NCBI GenBank assembly: GCA_963727215.1
Contig: CAVSFR010000006.1
Span: 319,761-383,760 of the forward strand
Direction: 5' to 3'
DNA from: an uncultured Actinomycetota bacterium
Lineage (GTDB): Bacteria > Actinomycetota > Actinomycetes > Propionibacteriales > Propionibacteriaceae
DNA length: 64,000 nt
Below, piece after piece: positions 14,299 to 59,040 of the stretch; position 1 is the first letter of the stretch, and each line of letters begins with the position of its first letter. The position numbers were made by a program, and so were the translations under genes. The notes beneath the pieces were generated by a model that did no database searches, was not told where the DNA came from, and saw nothing but the letters and a program-made list of their open reading frames with translations.

Positions 14299-15660
14299 AT
14301 GGCCGAGCGGACGCATGTCTCCCCCGCCGAGGTGCACGAGGTGCTGGGGCGCCACGTCCTGACCGACGGCATGAAGCTGGTGCTGGACCTGCGACGCAGC
14401 CGCGGTTCGCGCCTGGTCGACGCGCGCGACGGCACCACCTACCTCGACCTGTACACCTTCTTCGCCTCCGCGCCGCTCGGCATCAACCCGCCCGGACTGG
14501 CCGACGACCCGACCTTCATGTCCGAGCTCAGCGAGATCGCCGCGAACAAGCCGGCCAACCCCGACATGTACTCCAGCGCGTACGCGGAGTTCGTGGACAC
14601 CTTCGTGCGGGTGCTGGGCGACCCCGCACTGCCGTACCTGTTCTTCGTCGAGGGGGGCGCGCTGGCGGTGGAGAACGCCCTCAAGGCCGCGTTCGACTGG
14701 AAGAGCCGGCACAACGAGGTCGCCGGTCGCAGTCCGGAGCTGGGCACGAAGATCCTGCACCTGACCAGGGCGTTCCACGGGCGCTCCGGCTACACGCTGT
14801 CGCTGACCAACACCGAGCCGGGCAAGACAGCCCGCTTCCCGAAGTTCGAGTGGCCACGGATCGACGTACCGGCCGTACGCTTCCCGCTGGCCGACCACCT
14901 CGCCGACGTCGAGGCGGCCGAGGAGCGCGCCCTCGAGCAGGCCCGGCAGGCCTTCGCCGACCACCCGTACGACATCGCCGCCTTCATCGCCGAGCCGATC
15001 CAGGGCGAAGGGGGCGACAACCACCTGCGCGCGGAGTTCCTCGTCCAGATGCAGGAGCTCGCGCACGCGAACGACGCGCTGGTGATCATGGACGAGGTCC
15101 AGACCGGCGTCGGCACGACCGGGACGCCGTGGGCCTACCAGCAGCTCGGCCTGCGGCCGGACCTGGTGGCGTTCTCCAAGAAGGCCCAGGTCGGCGGGGT
15201 GATGGGCGGCGGCCGGCTCGACGAGGTGCCCGAGCACGTGTTCTGCGTCTCGGGCCGGATCAACTCCACCTGGGGCGGCGGCCTGACCGACATGGTCCGG
15301 TCGCGCCGGTTGCTGGAGATCATCGAGGCCGACGGGCTGATCGAGGCCGCTGGTCCCAAGGGCGAGCACCTGCTCACCGGACTTCGCGACGTCGCGACCG
15401 CCCATCCGCAGCTGGACAACGTCCGCGGCCGTGGGCTGTTCGCCGCCTGCGACCTGGCCACGCCGGAGCTGCGCAGCGCCGTGATCGCCGACCTGCACGA
15501 CGTCGAGCACGTGATCGTGCTGCCCTGCGGGGTGCGGTCGGTCCGCTTCCGTCCGGCCCTGTCGATCACCGAGGATGAGCTGGACGAGGCCGTCGCCGCC
15601 CTCGGCCGCACCCTCGCCCGCGTGACCAGCACCAGCACCACCCAGGAGCCCCCCTCGTGA
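14299..15660 (+). CDS. lat: L-lysine 6-aminotransferase
   Basis: YLDLYTFFASAPLG, NKPANPDMY, GALAVENALKAAFDWK, EPIQGEGGD, DEVQTG, STWGG. Confidence 0.92.
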   Translation: MAERTHVSPAEVHEVLGRHVLTDGMKLVLDLRRSRGSRLVDARDGTTYLDLYTFFASAPLGINPPGLADDPTFMSELSEIAANKPANPDMYSSAYAEFVDTFVRVLGDPALPYLFFVEGGALAVENALKAAFDWKSRHNEVAGRSPELGTKILHLTRAFHGRSGYTLSLTNTEPGKTARFPKFEWPRIDVPAVRFPLADHLADVEAAEERALEQARQAFADHPYDIAAFIAEPIQGEGGDNHLRAEFLVQMQELAHANDALVIMDEVQTGVGTTGTPWAYQQLGLRPDLVAFSKKAQVGGVMGGGRLDEVPEHVFCVSGRINSTWGGGLTDMVRSRRLLEIIEADGLIEAAGPKGEHLLTGLRDVATAHPQLDNVRGRGLFAACDLATPELRSAVIADLHDVEHVIVLPCGVRSVRFRPALSITEDELDEAVAALGRTLARVTSTSTTQEPPS

Positions 15661-17198
15661 GCAGCACCACGACCTCGGTCGTCAACGGAACCGCCGTCCC
15701 CGGTGGCACGACGCGGCCCAGCACCAACCCGGCCCGCCTCGACGAGGTCGTCGGCCAGGTGGAGTTCGCCGGCGCCGACACCTTCGTGGCGGCGGCCGAG
15801 GCCGCCCACAAGGCGCAGGAGGCGTGGGCTGCGGTCCCGGCCCCGGTCCGCGGCCGGGCCATCGCCCACATCGGCCGGCTCGTCGAGGACAACGCCGAGG
15901 CGCTGGCCCTGCTGGTCACCGACGAGATCGGCAAGCCGTACGCCGAGGCGCTCGGCGAGGTGCGCGAGATCGTCGACACCTGCGACTTCTTCCTCGGCGA
16001 GGGTCGGCGGCTGTACGGGCAGACCGTGCCCAGCGAGATGAGCGACAAGCAGCTCTTCACCTTCCGCAAGCCGGTCGGCGCGGTCGCGGTGATCACCGCC
16101 GGCAACTTCCCCGTGGCCGTCCCGTCCTGGTACATCGTCCCGGCCCTGCTGGCCGGCAACACCATCGTCTGGAAGCCGGCGGAGTACTCCCCGGTGGTCA
16201 GCGCCGCCTTTTACGAGCTGTTCGTCCGCGGCGGCGGGCTGCCCGACGGCGTGTTCAACATCGTGCACGCGGACGGCCCCGCTACTCAGCTGGGCTTGAC
16301 CCGGGCGTTGGAGCACGGGCTCGTCGACAAGGTCGGCTTCACCGGCTCGTCGGCCGTCGGCCGCGAGATCGGCGCGCTGACCGGACGTCACCTGCAGACC
16401 GCCTGCCTGGAGCTCGGCGGCAAGAACCCGCTGGTCGTCACGGCCAGCGCCGACCTCGACCTCGCCGTGGAGGGTGCGCTGTTCTCCGGCTTCGGCACCG
16501 GCGGCCAGCGCTGCACCTCCCTGGGCACGGTGATCGTGCACAGCTCGGTGCACGAGGAGTTCCTGCGCCGCTTCAACGCCGCCGTGGCCGCGGCCGCCGT
16601 CGGCGACCCGCGGGAGGACGTGCTGATGGGCCCGCTGCTCGACGCGAAGTTCGCGGAGCGCTACGAGGAGTACCTGACCTGGTTGGAGCCGCACCAGCGG
16701 GTGCAGGGCGCACAGGGACGGATCACCGCCGGCAACCCCCGGGCCGGCTTCGTCGGCGACCCGGCGGCAGGCCTGTTCTATCACCCCGTGGTCGTCGACG
16801 GGGTACGGCGCGGCGATCGGATCTTCACCGAGGAGACGTTCGGGCCGCTGGTGGGGGTCACCACGTACGAGACCCTGAGCGAGGCGATCGACCTGGCCAA
16901 CGCCCCCGGGTACGGCCTGTCGTCCTCGATCTACACCACAGACCCGAAGGAGGCGTTCACCTTCCGCGACCGCATCGGCGCGGGCATGGTGAGCATCAAC
17001 AACTCCACCTCGGGTGCGGAGGCGCACCTGCCCTTCGGCGGCAACGGGAAGTCCGGCAACGGCTCGCGGCAGTCGGGGATCTGGGTACTGGACCAGTTCA
17101 CGCGGTGGCAGTCGGTCAACTGGGACTACTCCGGTCGGCTGCAGAAGGCCCAGATGGACACCGCCCAGCTGGTCCCGGACACCACCTTCCGGCTGTAG
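15657..17198 (+). CDS. pcd: Aldehyde dehydrogenase, likely piperideine-6-carboxylate / 2-aminoadipate semialdehyde dehydrogenase
   Basis: EIGKPYAEALGEVREIVD, TAGNFPVAV, LELGGKN, GQRCTS, EETFGP; GTGA-coupled to lat. Confidence 0.75.
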   Translation: MSSTTTSVVNGTAVPGGTTRPSTNPARLDEVVGQVEFAGADTFVAAAEAAHKAQEAWAAVPAPVRGRAIAHIGRLVEDNAEALALLVTDEIGKPYAEALGEVREIVDTCDFFLGEGRRLYGQTVPSEMSDKQLFTFRKPVGAVAVITAGNFPVAVPSWYIVPALLAGNTIVWKPAEYSPVVSAAFYELFVRGGGLPDGVFNIVHADGPATQLGLTRALEHGLVDKVGFTGSSAVGREIGALTGRHLQTACLELGGKNPLVVTASADLDLAVEGALFSGFGTGGQRCTSLGTVIVHSSVHEEFLRRFNAAVAAAAVGDPREDVLMGPLLDAKFAERYEEYLTWLEPHQRVQGAQGRITAGNPRAGFVGDPAAGLFYHPVVVDGVRRGDRIFTEETFGPLVGVTTYETLSEAIDLANAPGYGLSSSIYTTDPKEAFTFRDRIGAGMVSINNSTSGAEAHLPFGGNGKSGNGSRQSGIWVLDQFTRWQSVNWDYSGRLQKAQMDTAQLVPDTTFRL

Positions 17199-17216
17199 GC
17201 CAGGCCCCGCACCGCG

Positions 17217-19418
17217 ATGCATCCCCTCGACGCCTTCACCCGCCGCTCCCTCTCCGACCTGTCAGCGCCGGTGGTTGCCCCGGCGACCACGGACGCTGAC
17301 AACTCGGTGGCGGGCGGGTGGTGGGAGGCGTTGTGGGGGGCGCAGGTGACCAGCCGGCACCTGGACTTCGTGGCCCGCGAGCTGCAGGCCGAGGGCGAGG
17401 GCTTCTACACGATCGGCTCGGCCGGGCACGAGGCGAACGCCCTGGTGGCGGCCGCGCTGCGGCCGAGCGACCCGGCCTTGCTGCACTACCGCTCCGGCGC
17501 CTTCTACGTGGCGCGCGCGGCGCAGGTCCCCGGCAGCACGCCGGTGCGCGACGTGCTGCAGGGGCTGATGGGGCTGGCCGACGAGCCGATCGCGGGCGGC
17601 CGGCACAAGGTGTTCGGCCACGCCGGTCTGGGCGTGATCCCGCAGACCTCGACGATCTCCTCCCACCTGCCGCGCGCGGTCGGCCTCGCCCTGGCCCTGC
17701 ACCGGGCCTACCGGCTGGGCGTCGCCTGCCCCTGGCCCGCCGACGCCGTGGTGGTCTGCTCCTTCGGTGACGCCTCGGCCAACCACTCGACCGCGGCCGG
17801 GGCCGTCAACACCGCCCTGAACGCCGCGTACCGGGGGCTGCCGGTCCCGCTGCTGCTGGTCTGCGAGGACAACGGCTACGGCATCTCGGTGCCGACGCCG
17901 GGCGGCTGGATCGAGGCCGCGTACGGCTCCCGGCCCGGTCTGGACTACGTGGCCGCGGACAGCTCCGACCCCGCCACCGCCCGCGCCGCCGCCGCCGCTG
18001 CGGTCGAGACCGTGCGGACGGCGCGCCGGCCCGTCTTCCTGCACCTGCGGACGGTTCGCTTCCTCGGCCACGCCGGCAGCGACGCGGAGGTCACCTACCG
18101 GACACCACGCACGATCGAGTCCGACTACGGTCGCGACCCCCTGCTGGCCACCGCCCGGGTGCTGGCCGTCGCCGGCCTGTCCGGCGCCGAGCTGCTGCGG
18201 CGCTACCTGGAGCTCCGCGCCGAGGTGGACGCCGAGGTCGTACGGCTGCGCGGCGGCGCCCGGCTCACCTCGGCCCCCCAGGTGATGGCCCCGCTCGCCC
18301 CGCGCCGTCCCGACCTGGTCGCCGAGCACGTCCGGAGCGCCTCGACGGCGGCATCGGAGGTCGCGTCGGAAACTCGTGGCGCCACCAGCAGGACGCTCGC
18401 GGAGTCCATCAACGCCACCTTGGCCGAGCTGCTGGCCGCGGACCGGCGAGTGCTGGTGTTCGGCGAGGACGTCGGCATCAAGGGCGGGGTGTACGGGGTG
18501 ACCGGCGGACTGGCGCGCCGCTTCGGCAGCGCCCGCGTCTTCGACACCGTGCTGGACGAGCAGTCGATCCTCGGCCTGGCTCTCGGCGCTGGGCTGGCCG
18601 GACTGGTCCCGGTGCCCGAGATCCAGTACCTGGCGTACCTGCACAACGCCGAGGACCAGCTGCGCGGCGAGGCCGCCACCCTGTCGTTCTTCTCCTCGGG
18701 AGCGTTCCGCAACCCGCTGGTGGTGCGGGTCGCCGGCCTGGCCTACCAACGCGGCTTCGGCGGCCACTTCCACAACGACAACGCCCTCGGCGTGCTCCGC
18801 GACATCCCCGGTCTGGTGCTCGCCTGCCCGAGCCGGGGCGACGACGCGGCCGCCATGCTGCGGACCTGCGTCGCAGCCGCGGCCACCGACGGCACGGTCG
18901 CGGTGTTCCTCGAGCCCATCGCGCTCTACCACCGCCGCGACCTGCACGAGGCCGGCGACGGCGGCTGGCTGACCGGCGACGAGGCCGGTCACGTACCCCT
19001 CAGCTCCGCCCGGCTGCACCCGGCACCCGGCACCCAGACCCCGGACCTGGTGCTGGTCACCTTCGGCAACGGCGTCCCGATGAGCCTGCGGGTGGCCCGT
19101 CGGCTGGCGGGTCAGGGTGTGGCCGCGGCCGTGCTGGACCTGCGCTGGCTGAGCCCGCTGCCGGTCGCGGACGTCCTCGCTGCGGCCTCGACCGCCGGCC
19201 GGGTGCTGGTGGTCGACGAGACCCGGCACAGTGGTGGCGTCGGCGAGGGCGTCGTGACCGCGCTGGTCGAGCACGGCTTCTCCGGACCGGTGGCCCGGGT
19301 GAGCAGCGCCGACTCGCTGGTCCCGCTGGGTGCGGCCGCCCAGCACGTGCTGCTGGGCGAGGACGAGATCGAACGTGCCGCCATCGCGGTGGCGGCCAAG
19401 GAGAGGGAGAGACGATGA
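17217..19418 (+). CDS. Fused alpha/beta TPP-dependent 2-oxoacid dehydrogenase E1
   Basis: YTIGSAGHE, TPP motif FGDAS...EDNGYGIS, GHAGSD, beta-domain FGEDVGIKGGVYGVT, FDTVLDEQ, EIQYLAYLHNA. Confidence 0.88.
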   Translation: MHPLDAFTRRSLSDLSAPVVAPATTDADNSVAGGWWEALWGAQVTSRHLDFVARELQAEGEGFYTIGSAGHEANALVAAALRPSDPALLHYRSGAFYVARAAQVPGSTPVRDVLQGLMGLADEPIAGGRHKVFGHAGLGVIPQTSTISSHLPRAVGLALALHRAYRLGVACPWPADAVVVCSFGDASANHSTAAGAVNTALNAAYRGLPVPLLLVCEDNGYGISVPTPGGWIEAAYGSRPGLDYVAADSSDPATARAAAAAAVETVRTARRPVFLHLRTVRFLGHAGSDAEVTYRTPRTIESDYGRDPLLATARVLAVAGLSGAELLRRYLELRAEVDAEVVRLRGGARLTSAPQVMAPLAPRRPDLVAEHVRSASTAASEVASETRGATSRTLAESINATLAELLAADRRVLVFGEDVGIKGGVYGVTGGLARRFGSARVFDTVLDEQSILGLALGAGLAGLVPVPEIQYLAYLHNAEDQLRGEAATLSFFSSGAFRNPLVVRVAGLAYQRGFGGHFHNDNALGVLRDIPGLVLACPSRGDDAAAMLRTCVAAAATDGTVAVFLEPIALYHRRDLHEAGDGGWLTGDEAGHVPLSSARLHPAPGTQTPDLVLVTFGNGVPMSLRVARRLAGQGVAAAVLDLRWLSPLPVADVLAAASTAGRVLVVDETRHSGGVGEGVVTALVEHGFSGPVARVSSADSLVPLGAAAQHVLLGEDEIERAAIAVAAKERERR
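17254..17307. repeat. 54-bp palindromic element (CAGCG subtype), in frame inside the E1 CDS
   Basis: CCGACCTGTCAGCGC-CGGTGGTTGCCCCGGCGACCACGG-ACGCTGACAACTCGG; same length, arms and interior motif as 55042-55095. Confidence 0.85.
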
Positions 19419-35874: not shown

Positions 35875-35928
35875 CCGACTTGTCAGAATCCAGTTGTCCT
35901 ATGGGACAACTCAGTTCTGACAAGTCGG
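35875..35928. repeat. 54-bp palindromic element (CAGAA subtype), upstream flank of cassette 1
   Basis: Perfect 14-bp arms CCGACTTGTCAGAA/TTCTGACAAGTCGG plus inner AGTTGTCC/GGACAACT stem. Confidence 0.95.
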
Positions 35929-36007
35929 TATCCACAGGTGGCGACGTGTCGGGTCGCCATCCACAGATTCCCCCAGGGCCTCGCAACGGCTGCCCTCGTT
36001 CACCACC

Positions 36008-36985
36008 GTGGTCGCCATGCGTCGCACGCCAAAGCCTCCCGCTGAGCTCGTCCATCTTGCCCACTGCCAGCAACAGGTCCTCACCCGGTCACAGCTCCGG
36101 CAGATCGGGCTGAGCCAAGTAGAGATCCGTGCCCAGATTGCGGCCCAGCGCTGGACGACCTGGGGCGCCCACGTGGTCGTGCTGCACAACGCAGAGCCCT
36201 CCCGGCCCCAGCTGATGTGGGCCAGCACTCTCGACGCCGGGCCGCCGACCGCCCTGGTCAGCCACACGGCGCTCGAGCTCGCGGGCTTCCGGGACTTCGC
36301 GCGGGCTGCGGCGGCAGTCCACCTCATGGTGCCGCGCGGCGCGAAGGTGAACCGCCACCCTTCCGTGGTCATCCACGAGTCTCGACGGGTGCAACCGGAA
36401 TTCCACGTTGAGAGGCAAGGGCTGCCCTGCACCGCAACCCCGCGCTCAGCTCTCGACGCGGCGGCCTGGCAATCGTGGCCGCGCTTCGCCTGCGCGATCG
36501 TCGCCGCAGTCGTGCAACAGCGGCTCTGCACCCCTGCGCAGCTCGACGACGCTCTGGCCATCGTCGGACGCATCAGGCACAAGGCCTATCTGCGCGAAGC
36601 TCTTCGCGACATCGCGGGCGGCGCGGAAGCCTTGAGCGAGCTGGACCTGGCCAAGGTGTGTCGTCGGTTCGGCCTGCAGCCCCCCTATCGACAGGTGCGA
36701 CGGCTCGACGCAAACGGTCGACGGCGCTACCTCGACGCCGAGTGGGTGCTTCCGAACGGCGAGCGGGTGCTGCTCGAGGTCGACGGCGCGCACCACGTCG
36801 AGGTGGAGCACTGGCAAGAGGACATGCAGCGCGAGCGGGCGCTTGTCGTCACCGGCTCCCGGGTGTTGCGAGCAACAGCCATGGAGCTCCGCCTCGAGCC
36901 CGCCTCGGTGGTCACCGACCTCGTCCGCGCCGGCGTACCCCGACTTGTCAGAACTCAGTTGTCCCAGAGGGCAACTGGTTTCTGA
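36008..36985 (+). CDS. AbiEi-like wHTH + DUF559/Vsr-like PD-(D/E)XK nuclease protein
   Basis: QQQVLTRSQL N-terminus, TATPRSALD, RYLDAEW, LEVDGAHH, DMQRERAL..G.RVLRAT; stop TGA inside the downstream palindrome. Confidence 0.85.
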   Translation: MVAMRRTPKPPAELVHLAHCQQQVLTRSQLRQIGLSQVEIRAQIAAQRWTTWGAHVVVLHNAEPSRPQLMWASTLDAGPPTALVSHTALELAGFRDFARAAAAVHLMVPRGAKVNRHPSVVIHESRRVQPEFHVERQGLPCTATPRSALDAAAWQSWPRFACAIVAAVVQQRLCTPAQLDDALAIVGRIRHKAYLREALRDIAGGAEALSELDLAKVCRRFGLQPPYRQVRRLDANGRRRYLDAEWVLPNGERVLLEVDGAHHVEVEHWQEDMQRERALVVTGSRVLRATAMELRLEPASVVTDLVRAGVPRLVRTQLSQRATGF

Positions 36986-36993
36986 CAACTCGG
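36940..36993. repeat. 54-bp palindromic element (CAGAA subtype), downstream flank of cassette 1
   Basis: CCGACTTGTCAGAA-CTC-AGTTGTCC-CAGA-GGGCAACT-GGT-TTCTGACAACTCGG. Confidence 0.93.
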
Positions 36994-51240: not shown

Positions 51241-51304
51241 GCCGCGATCCCCCCGCCTGGTCGGCGGTGGCCGCCACGGAGGCTGACAGCTCGGGGTTCG
51301 GAGC

Positions 51305-55041: not shown

Positions 55042-55095
55042 CCGACTTGTCAGCGTGAGTGGCTGCCCGAGCGACCACCCACGCTGACAAGTCGG
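55042..55095. repeat. 54-bp palindromic element (CAGCG subtype), downstream flank of cassette 2
   Basis: Perfect 15-bp arms CCGACTTGTCAGCGT/ACGCTGACAAGTCGG. Confidence 0.95.
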
Positions 55096-56024
55096 GTCTG
55101 TCGGACGCCTACCGCAAGGAGGTCAGACGCAATGGGGCCGGGATCGAGCCGAACCTCCAGGTTGGTGGCGCGCAGGACCTTACGGCCGGAGATCACCACA
55201 CTTCGTTCCCGACGCATGTCGGCCTCCCACTGGCTGACCTCCATGTGGTGCCGCCCGTCCACCTCGAGCACGACCACACCGCCGCCAGGAAGCTCCCACT
55301 CGCAGTCCAGGTACCGGGCTCGCCCGTCGCTCCCGCAGCGCGCGACTTGCCGCCGTGGCAGCTCGAGGCCGAACCGACGGCACATGCGGCCCACCTCCAG
55401 CTCACCGGAGGCGGTCGCCCCGGTCTCGATGTCGGCCAGCGCGAGCCGTAGGTAGGCCTTGTGCCTGATTCGGCCGATGTGCTCCATCGCCTCCTCGAGC
55501 TGCGTCACGGTGCACAGACGCTGCTGCACGACCGCTGCGACCAAAGCGCAAGCGAAGCGCGGGAATGGCTGCCAGGCGGCCGCATCGAGAGCCGATCGTG
55601 CCGTTCCCGTCCTGGGCAGCCCTCGGCTCCAGGTGCCGTCGTTGCTGCGGAGCCTGCGCGACTCGTGCACCCGAACGCCCGGCAGGGGTGCCGACCGGGC
55701 TCCGCGGGGGATCACCAGGTGAATCTGCTCCGCCTCGCGCGCAAAGCTCGAGAAGCCGGCGAGCTCGAGGGCGGTGTGGCCGGCGAGCAAGGCCGGCGGA
55801 CCCGCGTCCAGAACCGCCATCCACATCAGCTGAGCTCGGGAGGGCGGGCCGTTGCTCATCAGGACCAGGTGGTCCCCCCATGTCGTCCACCGTTCGCCCT
55901 CGACCTGCGCCCGCACGAAGCCGCGCGTCATCGAGTAGCACCGGAGCCAGTCACGTCGGAGCACGCCATGGGCCAAGCCCGCCCGAGCGAGGGCACGTGC
56001 ATCGTTCCAGCAGTCGACAGCCAC
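55050..56024 (-). CDS. AbiEi-like wHTH + DUF559/Vsr-like nuclease protein, paralog of 36008-36985 (start inferred)
   Basis: Shares RWTTWG, LDAGPP, HTALELAGF, HESRR, RSALDAAAWQ, VAAVVQQRLCT, GRIRHKAYLR, RYLD.EW, LEVDG.HH; GTG 56024 gives near-identical length. Confidence 0.85.
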   Translation of the reverse strand: MAVDCWNDARALARAGLAHGVLRRDWLRCYSMTRGFVRAQVEGERWTTWGDHLVLMSNGPPSRAQLMWMAVLDAGPPALLAGHTALELAGFSSFAREAEQIHLVIPRGARSAPLPGVRVHESRRLRSNDGTWSRGLPRTGTARSALDAAAWQPFPRFACALVAAVVQQRLCTVTQLEEAMEHIGRIRHKAYLRLALADIETGATASGELEVGRMCRRFGLELPRRQVARCGSDGRARYLDCEWELPGGGVVVLEVDGRHHMEVSQWEADMRRERSVVISGRKVLRATNLEVRLDPGPIASDLLAVGVRQTRLVSVGGRSGSHSR

Positions 56025-56111
56025 GCAGAGACGATCAGGACGTCGACTCAAGATCTGCGCGCCGCGGGCCAGCCTGTGGACGGCTGAGGCACCCGCTCTC
56101 TCCTGTGGACA

Positions 56112-56165
56112 CCGACTTGTCAGCGTCCACGGCTGCCATCGCGACCACTGACGCTGACAAGTCGG
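56112..56165. repeat. 54-bp palindromic element (CAGCG subtype), upstream flank of cassette 2
   Basis: CCGACTTGTCAGCGT-CCACGGCTGCCATCGCGACCACTG-ACGCTGACAAGTCGG. Confidence 0.95.
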
Positions 56166-56195: not shown

Positions 56196-58435
<2,240 letters not shown>

Positions 58436-58439
<4 letters not shown>

Positions 58440-58489
58440 GTTGTCAGAACCTCAGCGGGGCTCTGACCCCCTGAGGTTCTGACAAGTCG
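58436..58489. repeat. Solo 54-bp palindromic element (CAGAA subtype) between convergent genes
   Basis: CTGAGTTGTCAGAA-CCTCAG..CTGAGG-TTCTGACAAGTCGG; contains both flanking stop codons. Confidence 0.9.
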
Positions 58490-59040
58490 GGCAACACCAA
58501 CGCGTCCACCCGCTCGGCGGGGCGCTGCGCCTCGACGTAGGCCCGCTCCTGCGGCCACCAGTCGGTCCGCCACCGTTCCAGGAGCTCGGTCGGGTCCCGC
58601 TCGGCGATGCGCCGCCGCCGCACCGGCTCGGGCACGTCCAGCCAGAGCGTGAGGTCCCAGGGCACCCCCAGCCGGACATCGGTGGCGGAGACCCCCTCCA
58701 CCACCACCGGTACGCCGGGCGGCACCTCCCGGAGGGGTCCGAGCATCCCGGTGACCAGGTCGGCCGGCCGGTAGCGGCCCGGTCGACCGGCGAGGAGCGG
58801 CGTCAGCACCTCTGCGACGAAGCGGTCCCGCTGCCAGGTCGCGACGTCAGGGTGGGCGAAGTCGTCGATCGCCAGCACCACTGCGTCGGCGAGCTCGGCC
58901 GCGACCCGCGCGGCCAACGTGCTCTTGCCGGAAGCGCCGAGTCCGTCGATCCCGACCCAGACCGTCCCGCTCGACCCGAGCAGCCGGCCACTCACCCACT
59001 GCGGCGCCTCATCCAGGCTGATCCGAGCGGCCACGCCCAC
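58444..59040 (-). CDS. Uridine kinase-like P-loop protein
   Basis: [24 protein letters not shown]...ERAY. Confidence 0.75.

What the first reader, a model, noticed from the sequence alone, without database searches (positions are those of the whole stretch)
17254..17307. 54-bp palindrome sitting in frame (18 codons) inside the E1 gene
Seen: CCGACCTGTCAGCGC..ACGCTGACAACTCGG has the same length, arms and interior GGTTGCC..GCGACCAC pattern as the cassette 2 repeats about 38 kb away. It is read as SDLSAPVVAPATTDADNSV in a frame that avoids its TGA. Inference: the repeat disperses away from its gene, and a length divisible by 3 lets it survive in coding DNA, as Rickettsia RPEs do.
Basis: partly seen in the sequence, partly recalled or inferred. 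Interest (0 to 1): 0.7.

Follow-up and report, generated by a model that had tools for sequence, protein, structure and literature searches.

The report
Genome's palindromic repeat translated inside an enzyme
A 54-base hairpin-forming repeat that is scattered through this actinobacterial genome also sits, in frame, near the start of a dehydrogenase gene (and inside a copper pump gene). It has been kept there as a hairpin across many related species, so a short stretch of protein is dictated by a DNA repeat rather than by the protein's own needs.

Summary
Window 17254-17307 is a 54-nt imperfect palindrome (fold z = -4.9). It belongs to a family of about 35 copies (CCGACTTGTCAG-N30-CTGACAAGTCGG) and has the subtype that flanks the cassette-2 DUF559 gene 38 kb away.

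It lies in frame in codons 13-31 of a fused alpha/beta TPP E1 gene. The true start is upstream: the N-terminal motif [PA]LDxxFRxxL is conserved even in palindrome-free orthologues, and most orthologues have no in-frame start between the element and the conserved core.

It is not a recent insertion.
- 21 orthologues in the genus carry a 54-nt palindrome at the same site and in the same frame (DLS-x11-SDKS).
- Arms and length are fixed. The interiors differ but stay paired: 89% of cells paired, 14 of 25 pairs with double changes, 0 of 500 shuffles as good.
- The interior usually matches that genome's own dispersed subtype.
- Sister species have 83-85% identical flanks but only 11 of 30 identical interior bases.
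- No genome without the family has an intact E1 copy (0 of 16, against 20 of 26 with the family).

A CopA-type ATPase gene holds a second in-frame copy with a clean indel against orthologues.

Verdict: an RPE-like, translated, actively homogenised copy of a REP-like family sitting in a permissive linker. It is a new variant of a known kind. Translation itself is inferred, not shown.

The parts
17254..17307 (.). 54-nt imperfect palindrome, a 'CG' subtype member of the genus-specific REP-like family. It is read in frame as (S)DLSAPVVAPATTDADNS(V), codons 13-31 of E1.
17217..19418 (+). Fused alpha/beta TPP-dependent E1 dehydrogenase gene (733 aa; E1_dh + Transket_pyr + Transketolase_C) that hosts the palindrome.
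17217..17252 (+). ATG start plus the conserved N-terminal motif MHPLDAFTRRSL ([PA]LDxxFRxxL). It lies upstream of the palindrome and is conserved in orthologues with and without the palindrome.
   Evidence: predicted helix 3-13 at low confidence
17307..17309 (+). In-frame GTG immediately after the palindrome. It is the only candidate downstream start in this genome and is absent from most orthologues (TCG GCG TGG TGG TGG).
15657..17198 (+). Upstream aldehyde dehydrogenase gene. Its stop lies 18 nt before the E1 ATG and 55 nt before the palindrome.
55042..55095 (.). Copy of the same 'CG' subtype, flanking the cassette-2 DUF559-like gene. Its TGA supplies that gene's stop codon.
56112..56165 (.). 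Copy of the same 'CG' subtype on the other flank of the cassette-2 gene.
35875..35928 (.). Copy of the major 'AAC/AAT' subtype, flanking the cassette-1 DUF559-like gene.
36940..36993 (.). Copy of the major subtype on the other flank of cassette 1. The cassette-1 gene runs into it and stops at its TGA.
58436..58490 (.). 55-bp copy abutting the stop codon of the 747-aa gene 56196-58439.
51253..51294 (.). Shortened, decayed intergenic copy of the CG subtype. The right arm CTGACAGCTCGG is kept.

Best explanation
The 54-nt palindrome is a genuine member of a genus-specific, REP-like hairpin repeat family. The family has fixed 12-nt inverted arms, a self-complementary 30-nt interior, 0-270 copies per genome, and an association with a DUF559/Vsr-like gene that is itself flanked by two copies.

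One copy entered the N-terminal linker of the fused E1 gene in an ancestor of a large part of the genus. It is translated as part of the protein. Three things let it survive:
- It is exactly 18 codons long.
- It lies in the one reading frame (DLS...SDKS) that is open in most copies.
- The host segment is a hypervariable linker, probably disordered, between a conserved N-terminal helix and the catalytic core.

The copy is not a decaying relic. Its hairpin is maintained at the DNA level together with the rest of the family. Arms and length stay fixed, while the interior is repeatedly replaced or co-evolves to match the genome's own subtype. Where the family is lost, the E1 copy decays or disappears.

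**Shown:** presence, family membership, reading frame, orthology, covariation, within-genome similarity, and co-distribution with the family.

**Inferred:**
- that the segment is actually translated;
- that homogenisation works by gene conversion or re-insertion, possibly triggered by the cassette nuclease;
- that the peptide itself is functionally neutral.
For: **Family membership.**

**Start lies upstream of the palindrome.**
- The ATG/GTG and the [PA]LDxxFRxxL motif are conserved in 120 database homologues and across genus loci.
- This includes palindrome-free orthologues and a 55%-identical orthologue from another genus.
- G081 has GAGGAGGA 7 nt before the ATG.
- Most orthologues have no in-frame ATG/GTG/TTG between the element and the conserved WWW..AQATSRHLD.

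**Orthologous copies.**
- 21 genus loci have a 54-nt palindrome at the same site and in the same frame.
- 101 of 120 homologues show the strict peptide signature, and most of the rest show derivatives of it.

**Hairpin is maintained.**
- 89.3% of cells are paired, against 26-40% when partners are slid.
- 14 of 25 pairs have changes on both sides, covering 77 cells; 0 of 500 shuffles reach the observed values.
- Two E1 genes that are 97.1% identical differ in the element by an A-T to G-C compensatory pair. At the protein level this gives S->G together with L->P.

**Evolves in concert with the family.**
- The E1 interior is closest to dispersed copies of its own genome in G136 (3/10 minimum/median mismatches of 30), G098 (5/10) and G081 (4/8).
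- G030's E1 copy has G030's own CCGGGGC subtype.
- Sisters G098 and G136 (support 100/97) have flanks 33/39 and 125/150 identical and arms 24/24, but interiors only 11/30.

**Depends on the family.**
- An intact E1 palindrome is found in 20 of 26 genomes with 7 or more copies and in 0 of 16 with none.
- G087 (0 copies) has a decayed copy (17/25 pairs), while its sister G114 (39 copies) has 22/25.

**Permissive host site.**
- The linker varies from 10 to 35 aa across the genus.
- In other lineages it holds an unrelated palindromic family in frame.
- Residues 1-32 have pLDDT below 50 and residues 14-26 are coil.

**Second in-frame case.** The CopA-type ATPase has an 11-aa indel against palindrome-free orthologues and a collapsed remnant in G083.

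**Frame logic.** The DLS frame is open in 143 of 186 strand readings of dispersed copies. The other two frames are mostly closed by the arm TGA or a loop TAG.
Against: - There is no direct evidence of translation.
- In this genome an in-frame GTG follows the element at 17307, so a shorter isoform cannot be excluded.
- No Shine-Dalgarno sequence is visible before the ATG at 17217.
- Counts by codon position in the 12 N-terminal codons (31, 16, 23) are not a clean purifying-selection signature.
- The structure model is poor overall (mean pLDDT 61), so 'disordered linker' is weakly supported.
- The association with family presence is not phylogenetically corrected. The E1 tree needs at least 7 state changes, so repeated insertion at a hotspot is not excluded.
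- In G000 the E1 copy belongs to a minority subtype, not the major one.
- In G085 the E1 subtype differs from the subtype flanking the only cassette found there.
- Two assemblies (G119, G099) show frame breaks around the element that I could not resolve.
Confidence: 0.8

Rival explanations
1. The palindrome is not coding. E1 translation starts at or after the GTG at 17307, and the element sits in the aldH-E1 intergenic leader like an ordinary extragenic REP. The long ORF would be an artefact of taking the first upstream start codon.
For: - An in-frame GTG lies directly after the element.
- No Shine-Dalgarno sequence precedes the ATG at 17217.
- One public annotation (P0116, Microlunatus capsulatus) starts the protein inside the palindrome.
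- Most family copies are extragenic and hug gene 3' ends, and this copy lies 55 nt after the aldH stop.
- The DLS frame is open in 77% of dispersed copies anyway, so an open frame alone proves little.
Against: - The N-terminal motif upstream of the element is conserved as protein across the genus and in another genus, whether or not a palindrome is present.
- The start codon is conserved, and G081 has a canonical SD before it.
- Most orthologues have no in-frame start codon between the element and the conserved WWW..AQATSRHLD block, which is clearly coding.
- Length changes of the element are multiples of 3: 54, 51 and 57 nt.
- The CopA copy lies 1.5 kb inside a gene and cannot be extragenic.
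Confidence: 0.07
2. The hairpin is a locus-specific cis-regulatory element of the aldH-E1 operon, kept by selection for that role. It could be an mRNA 3'-end stabiliser for aldH, an RNase processing site, a translational brake or a protein operator. Its resemblance to the dispersed repeats would be secondary.
For: - Site and structure are conserved over many species, with strong covariation.
- The position just downstream of the aldH stop is where REPs stabilise upstream messages in E. coli (established knowledge).
- The hairpin starts at +38, just outside an initiating ribosome's footprint.
Against: - The same element occurs at about 35 unrelated loci in this genome and at up to 270 in relatives.
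- The E1 interior tracks the genome's own subtype rather than an operon-specific sequence.
- There is no strand asymmetry: G.U on the sense strand 16 against A.C 14 in E1 copies, and 22 against 21 in CopA copies. This argues against selection on the mRNA hairpin.
- Lineages that lost the family lost the E1 hairpin with no structured replacement at the same place, and the operon persists.
- There is no T-run after the hairpin and no Rfam match.
Confidence: 0.08
3. The site is an insertion hotspot. The E1 palindromes in different species come from repeated independent insertions or replacements of the currently active subtype, not from one ancient copy kept by gene conversion or compensatory change.
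For: - Interiors of sister species are unrelated (11/30) while their flanks are 83-85% identical.
- The E1 interior matches the own-genome subtype.
- The same linker took up a second, unrelated palindromic family in other lineages.
- The tree needs at least 7 state changes.
Against: - Junctions, length (54 nt) and frame are identical in all 21 copies, including deep branches.
- No target-site duplication or empty-site scar is seen.
- A within-element compensatory pair between 97%-identical genes shows change in place.
- Replacement exactly within the old boundaries is operationally the same as conversion.
Confidence: 0.2
4. The element-encoded peptide has been co-opted and is kept for a role in the E1 protein, such as a flexible tether or an interaction motif.
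For: - DLS and SDKS are nearly invariant in orthologues.
- The segment has persisted for a long time in two unrelated proteins.
Against: - DLS and SDKS are simply the translation of arms that are equally conserved in intergenic copies.
- The interior residues change wholesale and in DNA-paired fashion, for example S->G with L->P.
- Lineages without the family do well with unrelated linkers.
- The model gives no confident structure for this segment.
Confidence: 0.04

Closest known systems
Rickettsia palindromic elements (RPEs; Ogata et al. 2000, as summarised in PMC10969869)
   Same: - Both are palindromic selfish repeats found in frame inside unrelated housekeeping genes.
- The length is compatible with the reading frame.
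- The insert is tolerated in permissive surface or loop regions and adds a peptide to the product.
- Orthologues without the element show an indel (the CopA case here).
   Different: - This element is 54 bp, not about 100-150 bp.
- The sequence is unrelated and the host is a high-GC actinobacterium.
- Only 2 of 35 copies are internal to genes, whereas intragenic location is the hallmark of RPEs.
- The family is linked to a flanked nuclease-like gene.
- Intragenic copies here stay perfect hairpins and change subtype in step with the genome's family.
REP/REPIN elements with RAYT transposases ('REPtrons') of Proteobacteria
   Same: - Short dispersed hairpin repeats, mostly extragenic and next to gene 3' ends.
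- A single-copy, syntenic enzyme gene is flanked by two repeats.
- Repeat subtype and enzyme co-occur across species.
   Different: - No Y1 transposase is present in this genome (PF01797: 0 hits).
- The flanked gene is DUF559/Vsr-like.
- Arms are 12 nt and the unit is fixed at 54 bp.
- REPs are extragenic by definition, whereas this copy is translated.
Intragenic ERIC elements and other MITEs that make in-frame fusions (Delihas 2007, cited in PMC10969869)
   Same: Small repeats with inverted ends that carry an open frame and are occasionally found inside genes, giving new peptide segments.
   Different: - This family has no target-site duplications.
- No parent insertion sequence is known.
- The whole unit is one hairpin, not terminal inverted repeats around a core.

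Membership tests
54-bp palindromic repeat family of this genus (cassette-associated) | Conserved 12-nt inverted arms CCGA(C/G)TTGTCAG ... CTGACAA(G/C)TCGG | tested here: met
   The E1 copy has 22 of 24 arm bases matching the consensus. A profile built from five copies, this one included, finds all five at nhmmer E about 1e-15 to 1e-16.
54-bp palindromic repeat family of this genus (cassette-associated) | Unit length of 54 bp with a self-complementary 30-nt interior | tested here: met
   The element spans 17254-17307, exactly 54 nt. Its hairpin is -46.4 kcal/mol, z = -4.9.
54-bp palindromic repeat family of this genus (cassette-associated) | Interior subtype shared with other copies of the same genome | tested here: met
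   The GGTGGYTGCC..GCGACCAC interior is shared with both cassette-2 flanks, C6:609026 and the CopA copy.
Rickettsia palindromic elements (RPE) | Palindromic repeat inserted in frame in protein-coding genes | tested here: met
   The E1 and CopA copies are both in frame. CopA shows an indel against orthologues.
Rickettsia palindromic elements (RPE) | Sequence and size of the RPE families (about 100-150 bp, Rickettsia) | tested here: not met
   The element is 54 bp and is found only in one genus of Propionibacteriaceae among 40 genera sampled.
Rickettsia palindromic elements (RPE) | A large share of copies lie inside genes | tested here: not met
   Of 35 copies, 2 are internal to genes, about 8 overlap gene 3' ends and the rest are intergenic.
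REP/REPIN-RAYT system | Associated IS200/IS605-type Y1 transposase (RAYT) | tested here: not met
   PF01797 gives no hit in the whole genome, while the control genomes are positive. The flanked gene matches DUF559 weakly.
REP/REPIN-RAYT system | Enzyme gene flanked by two repeats and co-distributed with them | tested here: met
   There are two cassettes in the window. The gene is present in 21 of 61 genus genomes, all with 7 or more repeats, and in none of the 26 repeat-free genomes. Flanking copies are also seen in G125, G085 and G136.
REP/REPIN-RAYT system | Extragenic location | tested here: not met
   This copy lies within the E1 coding sequence.
MITE | Target-site duplications flanking the element | tested here: not met
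   The longest direct repeat across the junctions is 0-2 nt in all 35 copies.
Rfam RNA families | Match to a curated structured RNA | tested here: not met
   Only chance-level microRNA or UTR hits appear, far below the gathering scores.

The most novel reading that the evidence does not exclude
The intragenic copies in E1 and CopA are repeatedly overwritten by a DNA-level homogenising process. The likely mechanism is cleavage or recognition of the conserved arms by the cassette's DUF559-type nuclease, followed by repair from another copy. As a result, about 10 residues of two housekeeping proteins are rewritten whenever the genome's repeat subtype turns over. This would be a protein segment whose sequence is set by the concerted evolution of a selfish hairpin family, and a natural read-out of that family's activity.
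Probability: 0.4. Interest if true: 0.75.

Novelty: new variant of a known kind. Interest (0 to 1): 0.6.

Why it matters
- It extends the 'selfish DNA inside protein-coding genes' phenomenon, known mainly from Rickettsia, to a free-living high-GC actinobacterial genus and to a different, REP-like repeat system.
- The orthologous, translated copies give a fixed genomic address at which the repeat family's turnover can be followed across species. Flanks evolve vertically while the interior is swapped. This makes testable the question of how REP-like families are homogenised (conversion, re-insertion, or selection by a cognate protein).
- It is a practical warning for annotation. Start-codon calls differ between public records for this gene, and repeat-derived peptides inflate apparent protein variability.
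- It identifies permissive insertion sites in two enzymes: the E1 N-terminal linker and a loop of the CopA nucleotide-binding domain.

Tried and rejected
- **Rfam scan of 17100-17450.** Only chance hits.
- **RAYT (PF01797) search of the genome.** No hits, so this is not a classical REP/RAYT system.
- **Target-site duplication check.** None found.
- **Codon-position substitution count in the 12 N-terminal codons.** The result (31, 16, 23) is not decisive. I relied on motif conservation and start-codon logic instead.
- **'No stop codon in 21 of 21 E1 copies' as evidence of translation.** This is weak, because 77% of dispersed copies are open in that frame anyway.
- **G.U versus A.C asymmetry as a test for an mRNA-level hairpin.** No asymmetry, so an RNA-specific function is not supported.
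- **AlphaFold2 on a 58-sequence alignment.** Mean pLDDT was 61. It is usable only as a weak hint that residues 14-26 are unstructured.
- **Family-wide protein search.** It showed the true E1 orthologue is essentially confined to this genus plus one other genus at 55% identity, so the 'gap in distant orthologues' test could only be done within the genus.
- **Extended 57-nt inverted repeat reported by the repeat finder (17223-17338, 70%).** The extra complementarity is absent from orthologues, so I judged it to be chance C-rich/G-rich flanks.
- **Literature searches.** I found no description of this family or of DUF559-flanked palindromes.
Full report
**1. The observation**

Window 17254-17307 is CCGACCTGTCAGCGCCGGTGGTTGCCCCGGCGACCACGGACGCTGACAACTCGG.
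- It folds as a single long hairpin: -46.4 kcal/mol, z = -4.9, 0 of 200 shuffles as good.
- Its arm and interior pattern recurs at 55042-55095 and 56112-56165, with 6 pattern matches in the window against 0.75 expected.
- The longest ORF, 17217-19418, reads it as S-DLSAPVVAPATTDADNS-V. The TGA of GCTGACA is out of frame.
- The ORF is a fused alpha/beta TPP-dependent E1 (E1_dh + Transket_pyr + Transketolase_C). It is preceded by an aldehyde dehydrogenase gene and followed by an acyl-CoA dehydrogenase gene.

**2. The repeat family**

The whole genome (3.8 Mb, 71% GC, 10 contigs; the window is C6:319761-383760) holds about 35 copies. All have the form CCGA(C/G)TTGTCAG-N30-CTGACAA(G/C)TCGG, and nearly all are exactly 54 bp.

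There are two main interior subtypes:
- A major AAC/AAT type, for example AACTGAGTTGTCC-CATAGG-GACAACTCAGTT.
- A minor 'CG' type (CGTSAGTGGYTGCC...GCGACCAC...ACG). It comprises the E1 copy, both flanks of the cassette-2 gene, C6:609026 and a copy on contig C10.

Other properties of the family:
- By a GC3 frame test, most copies are intergenic and about eight are overrun by the 3' end of a gene, often supplying its stop codon.
- There are no target-site duplications.
- The genome has no Y1/RAYT transposase.
- There is no Rfam match.
- Two roughly 1.1-kb 'cassettes' in the window (35875-36993 and 55042-56165) consist of a DUF559/Vsr-like gene between two copies.
- In 61 genomes of the same GTDB genus the family has 0 to 270 copies. 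The cassette gene is present in 21 genomes, all with 7 or more copies, and in none of the 26 genomes without copies.
- Public names for close E1 homologues point to Microlunatus/Friedmanniella, Propionibacteriaceae.
- With these arms, the family was not found in 39 other genera of the same family.
- Earlier agents of this scan described the cassettes as REPtron-like. I re-derived the co-occurrence and the flanking arrangement myself but did not pursue the enzyme.

**3. Is the palindrome really inside the coding sequence?**

The decisive question is where the start lies.

(a) Conservation among 120 database homologues:
- Nearly all begin M[HD]PLDxxFRxSLxD.
- They continue LS-x(9-11)-[SD]DKS and then WWW.LF.AQATSRHLD.
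- 101 match a strict signature and most of the rest are derivatives, including a 51-nt form.

(b) Evidence from genus loci fetched as DNA:
- The ATG/GTG and the motif [PA]LDxxFRxxL are conserved in orthologues with no palindrome, and in a 55%-identical orthologue from another genus.
- G081, where a different gene lies upstream, has GAGGAGGA 7 nt before the ATG.

(c) Most orthologues read ...AAG TCG GCG TGG TGG TGG... after the element. They have no in-frame ATG, GTG or TTG before the clearly coding core.

(d) A second copy lies 1.5 kb inside a gene (see section 7).

The evidence against:
- This genome has an in-frame GTG at 17307.
- It has no visible SD before 17217.
- One public record starts the protein inside the palindrome (P0116).

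I put the downstream-start rival at about 7%. Translation is still inferred.

**4. The E1 copy is old and orthologous**

- 21 loci from the genus carry a 54-nt palindrome at exactly the same place and in the same frame.
- On an E1 tree these fall within one clade of 37 rows (support 97/93). Basal rows lack the palindrome, and at least 7 state changes are needed.
The host segment is a hypervariable linker of 10-35 aa.
- In several palindrome-free lineages this linker carries, in frame, an unrelated palindromic repeat: CTGAGCCTGTCGAAGGGC...GCCCTTCGACAGGCTCAG, read as EPVEGP...PFDRLR. In others it carries tandem repeats of half of that element.
- The AlphaFold model is poor (mean pLDDT 61). It shows a helix at residues 3-13, coil at 14-26, and pLDDT below 50 for residues 1-32.

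**5. The hairpin is maintained, not decaying**

- Across the 21 E1 copies, 89.3% of cells form pairs, against 26-40% with slid partners.
- 14 of 25 pairs have changes on both sides, covering 77 cells, and no shuffle in 500 reaches the observed values.
- Two metagenomic E1 genes that are 97.1% identical differ in the element by an A-T to G-C pair plus one loop base. At the protein level this is S->G together with L->P.
- G.U on the sense strand (16) is no commoner than A.C (14). In CopA copies the counts are 22 and 21. The constraint therefore looks symmetric, meaning it acts on DNA rather than on the mRNA hairpin.

**6. The copy evolves in concert with the genome's family**

- The interior of the E1 copy is closest to dispersed copies of its own genome: G136 3/10, G098 5/10 and G081 4/8 (minimum/median mismatches of 30). 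Minimum mismatches to the other genomes' sets are 6-15.
- G030's E1 copy carries G030's own CCGGGGC subtype.
- Sister species G098 and G136 have flanks 33/39 and 125/150 identical and arms 24/24, but interiors only 11/30. The interior was therefore replaced as a block.
- In G000 the E1 copy belongs to the minority CG subtype shared with the cassette-2 flanks.
- An intact E1 palindrome occurs in 20 of 26 genomes with 7 or more family copies and in 0 of 16 with none.
- G087 (0 copies) has a decayed copy with 17/25 pairs, next to its sister G114 (39 copies) with 22/25.

These associations are not phylogenetically corrected. In G085 the E1 subtype differs from that of the only cassette found there.

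**7. Why it can survive in a gene**

- The unit is 18 codons long.
- One frame (GAC TTG TCA ... TCT GAC AAG TCG, giving DLS...SDKS) is open in 143 of 186 strand readings of dispersed copies.
- The other two frames are usually closed, by TGA in the right arm or by TAG in the CTATAG loop.
- Because the element is a palindrome, the same holds on both strands.
- All translated copies found use this frame:
  - E1;
  - the C-terminus of a PLP enzyme (...TDLSERQCPIGLSDSDKSG*, C6:607896);
  - an internal copy in a CopA-type P1B ATPase (C10:149082-149135, AELSASMAARTTSDADTSV).

- 14 orthologues carry the palindrome at the same site.
- Orthologues from repeat-free genomes have the short loop AEVEGVGTVVVG, which is 11 aa shorter.
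- G083 has a collapsed remnant, AELSDKWVVVG.

**8. Mechanism**

*Shown:* a family member sits in frame, is orthologous, keeps its pairing, resembles its own genome's copies, and is lost together with the family.

*Inferred, most likely:* an ancestral insertion just downstream of the aldH stop, which is the family's usual niche. Because the spacer is only 18 nt, the insertion landed in the E1 linker in the one open frame. Since then, a DNA-level process acting on the conserved arms has maintained the copy. Candidates are gene conversion or re-insertion, possibly started by the cassette nuclease.

*Rivals:*
- a downstream start (0.07);
- an operon-specific regulatory hairpin (0.08);
- repeated independent insertion at a hotspot, as a variant of the mechanism (0.2);
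- a co-opted peptide (0.04).

**9. Comparison and verdict**

The element works like a Rickettsia palindromic element (in-frame selfish palindromes in housekeeping genes; PMC10969869), and its parent family resembles REP/RAYT systems. It is a member of neither. Size, sequence and host differ, few copies are intragenic, there is no RAYT, and there are no target-site duplications. I found no description of it in the literature.

It is a new variant of a known kind. Its most interesting aspect is that translated copies at fixed addresses record the family's concerted evolution.

Noticed in passing
genome contig C10:149082-149135 (outside the window; ORF C10:148405-150690, minus strand): A second in-frame copy lies inside a CopA-type P1B ATPase, read AELSASMAARTTSDADTSV, in a loop of the nucleotide-binding domain. 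It is conserved at the same site in 14 orthologues. Orthologues from repeat-free genomes are 11 aa shorter there.
   Followed up: yes
L107 (G083) and L103 (G138), CopA orthologues: G083 has a collapsed remnant of the palindrome (CCGAGTTGTC|CGACAAGTGG, AELSDKW), as if the interior had been excised. In G138 a piece of a second repeat family (CCCTTCGACAGGCTCAGGAC) is appended right after the 54-bp copy.
   Followed up: partly
L061 (G118), L063 (G107), L066 (G101), L065 (G091), L064 (G092): E1 N-terminal linker: An unrelated palindromic repeat (CTGAGCCTGTCGAAGGGC...GCCCTTCGACAGGCTCAG, translated EPVEGP...PFDRLR) occupies the same E1 linker in frame in other lineages. G092 has four tandem half-units (PEPVEGSR x4). 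The linker is a recurrent landing site for hairpin repeats.
   Followed up: partly
genome contig C6:607896-607949 (outside the window): A copy forms the last 18 residues (TDLSERQCPIGLSDSDKSG*) of a PLP-dependent cysteine-synthase or CBS-like enzyme, in the same DLS..SDKS frame.
   Followed up: partly
window 36940-36993, 55042-55095, 58436-58490 and five further copies elsewhere in the genome: About 8 of 35 copies are overrun by the 3' end of a coding frame. Several supply its stop codon from the TGA of CTGACA, including both cassette genes.
   Followed up: partly
L118 and L119 (metagenomic E1 genes, 97.1% identical): Inside the palindrome these two genes differ by a compensatory A-T to G-C pair plus one loop base. 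This gives the paired amino-acid changes S->G and L->P (ESPSAMALG against ESPGAVAPG).
   Followed up: yes
L045 (G119) and L051 (G099), E1 5' region: In G119 the MHPLD start is one base out of frame with the palindrome and the rest of E1. G099 has a 57-nt copy, and the frame breaks before the WW motif. These could be assembly errors in draft genomes or real pseudogenisation; this is unresolved.
   Followed up: no
P0116 (Microlunatus capsulatus record) against P0005 (Friedmanniella luteola record): Public annotations disagree on the E1 start. One begins at MHPLD and the other begins inside the palindrome (MRTDLSSDTS...).
   Followed up: partly
flanks of several copies, e.g. C3:215640, C4:547528, C10:230633: The 6-10 nt on either side of some copies are complementary to each other. 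Either the hairpin extends beyond the 54-bp unit, or the unit inserted into the middle of an older hairpin.
   Followed up: no
G081 genome-wide copies: In G081 many copies have the arm variant GACTGGTCAG...CTGACCAGTC, a compensated T->G / A->C change in the otherwise invariant arms. No cassette gene was found in that 98%-complete genome.
   Followed up: no
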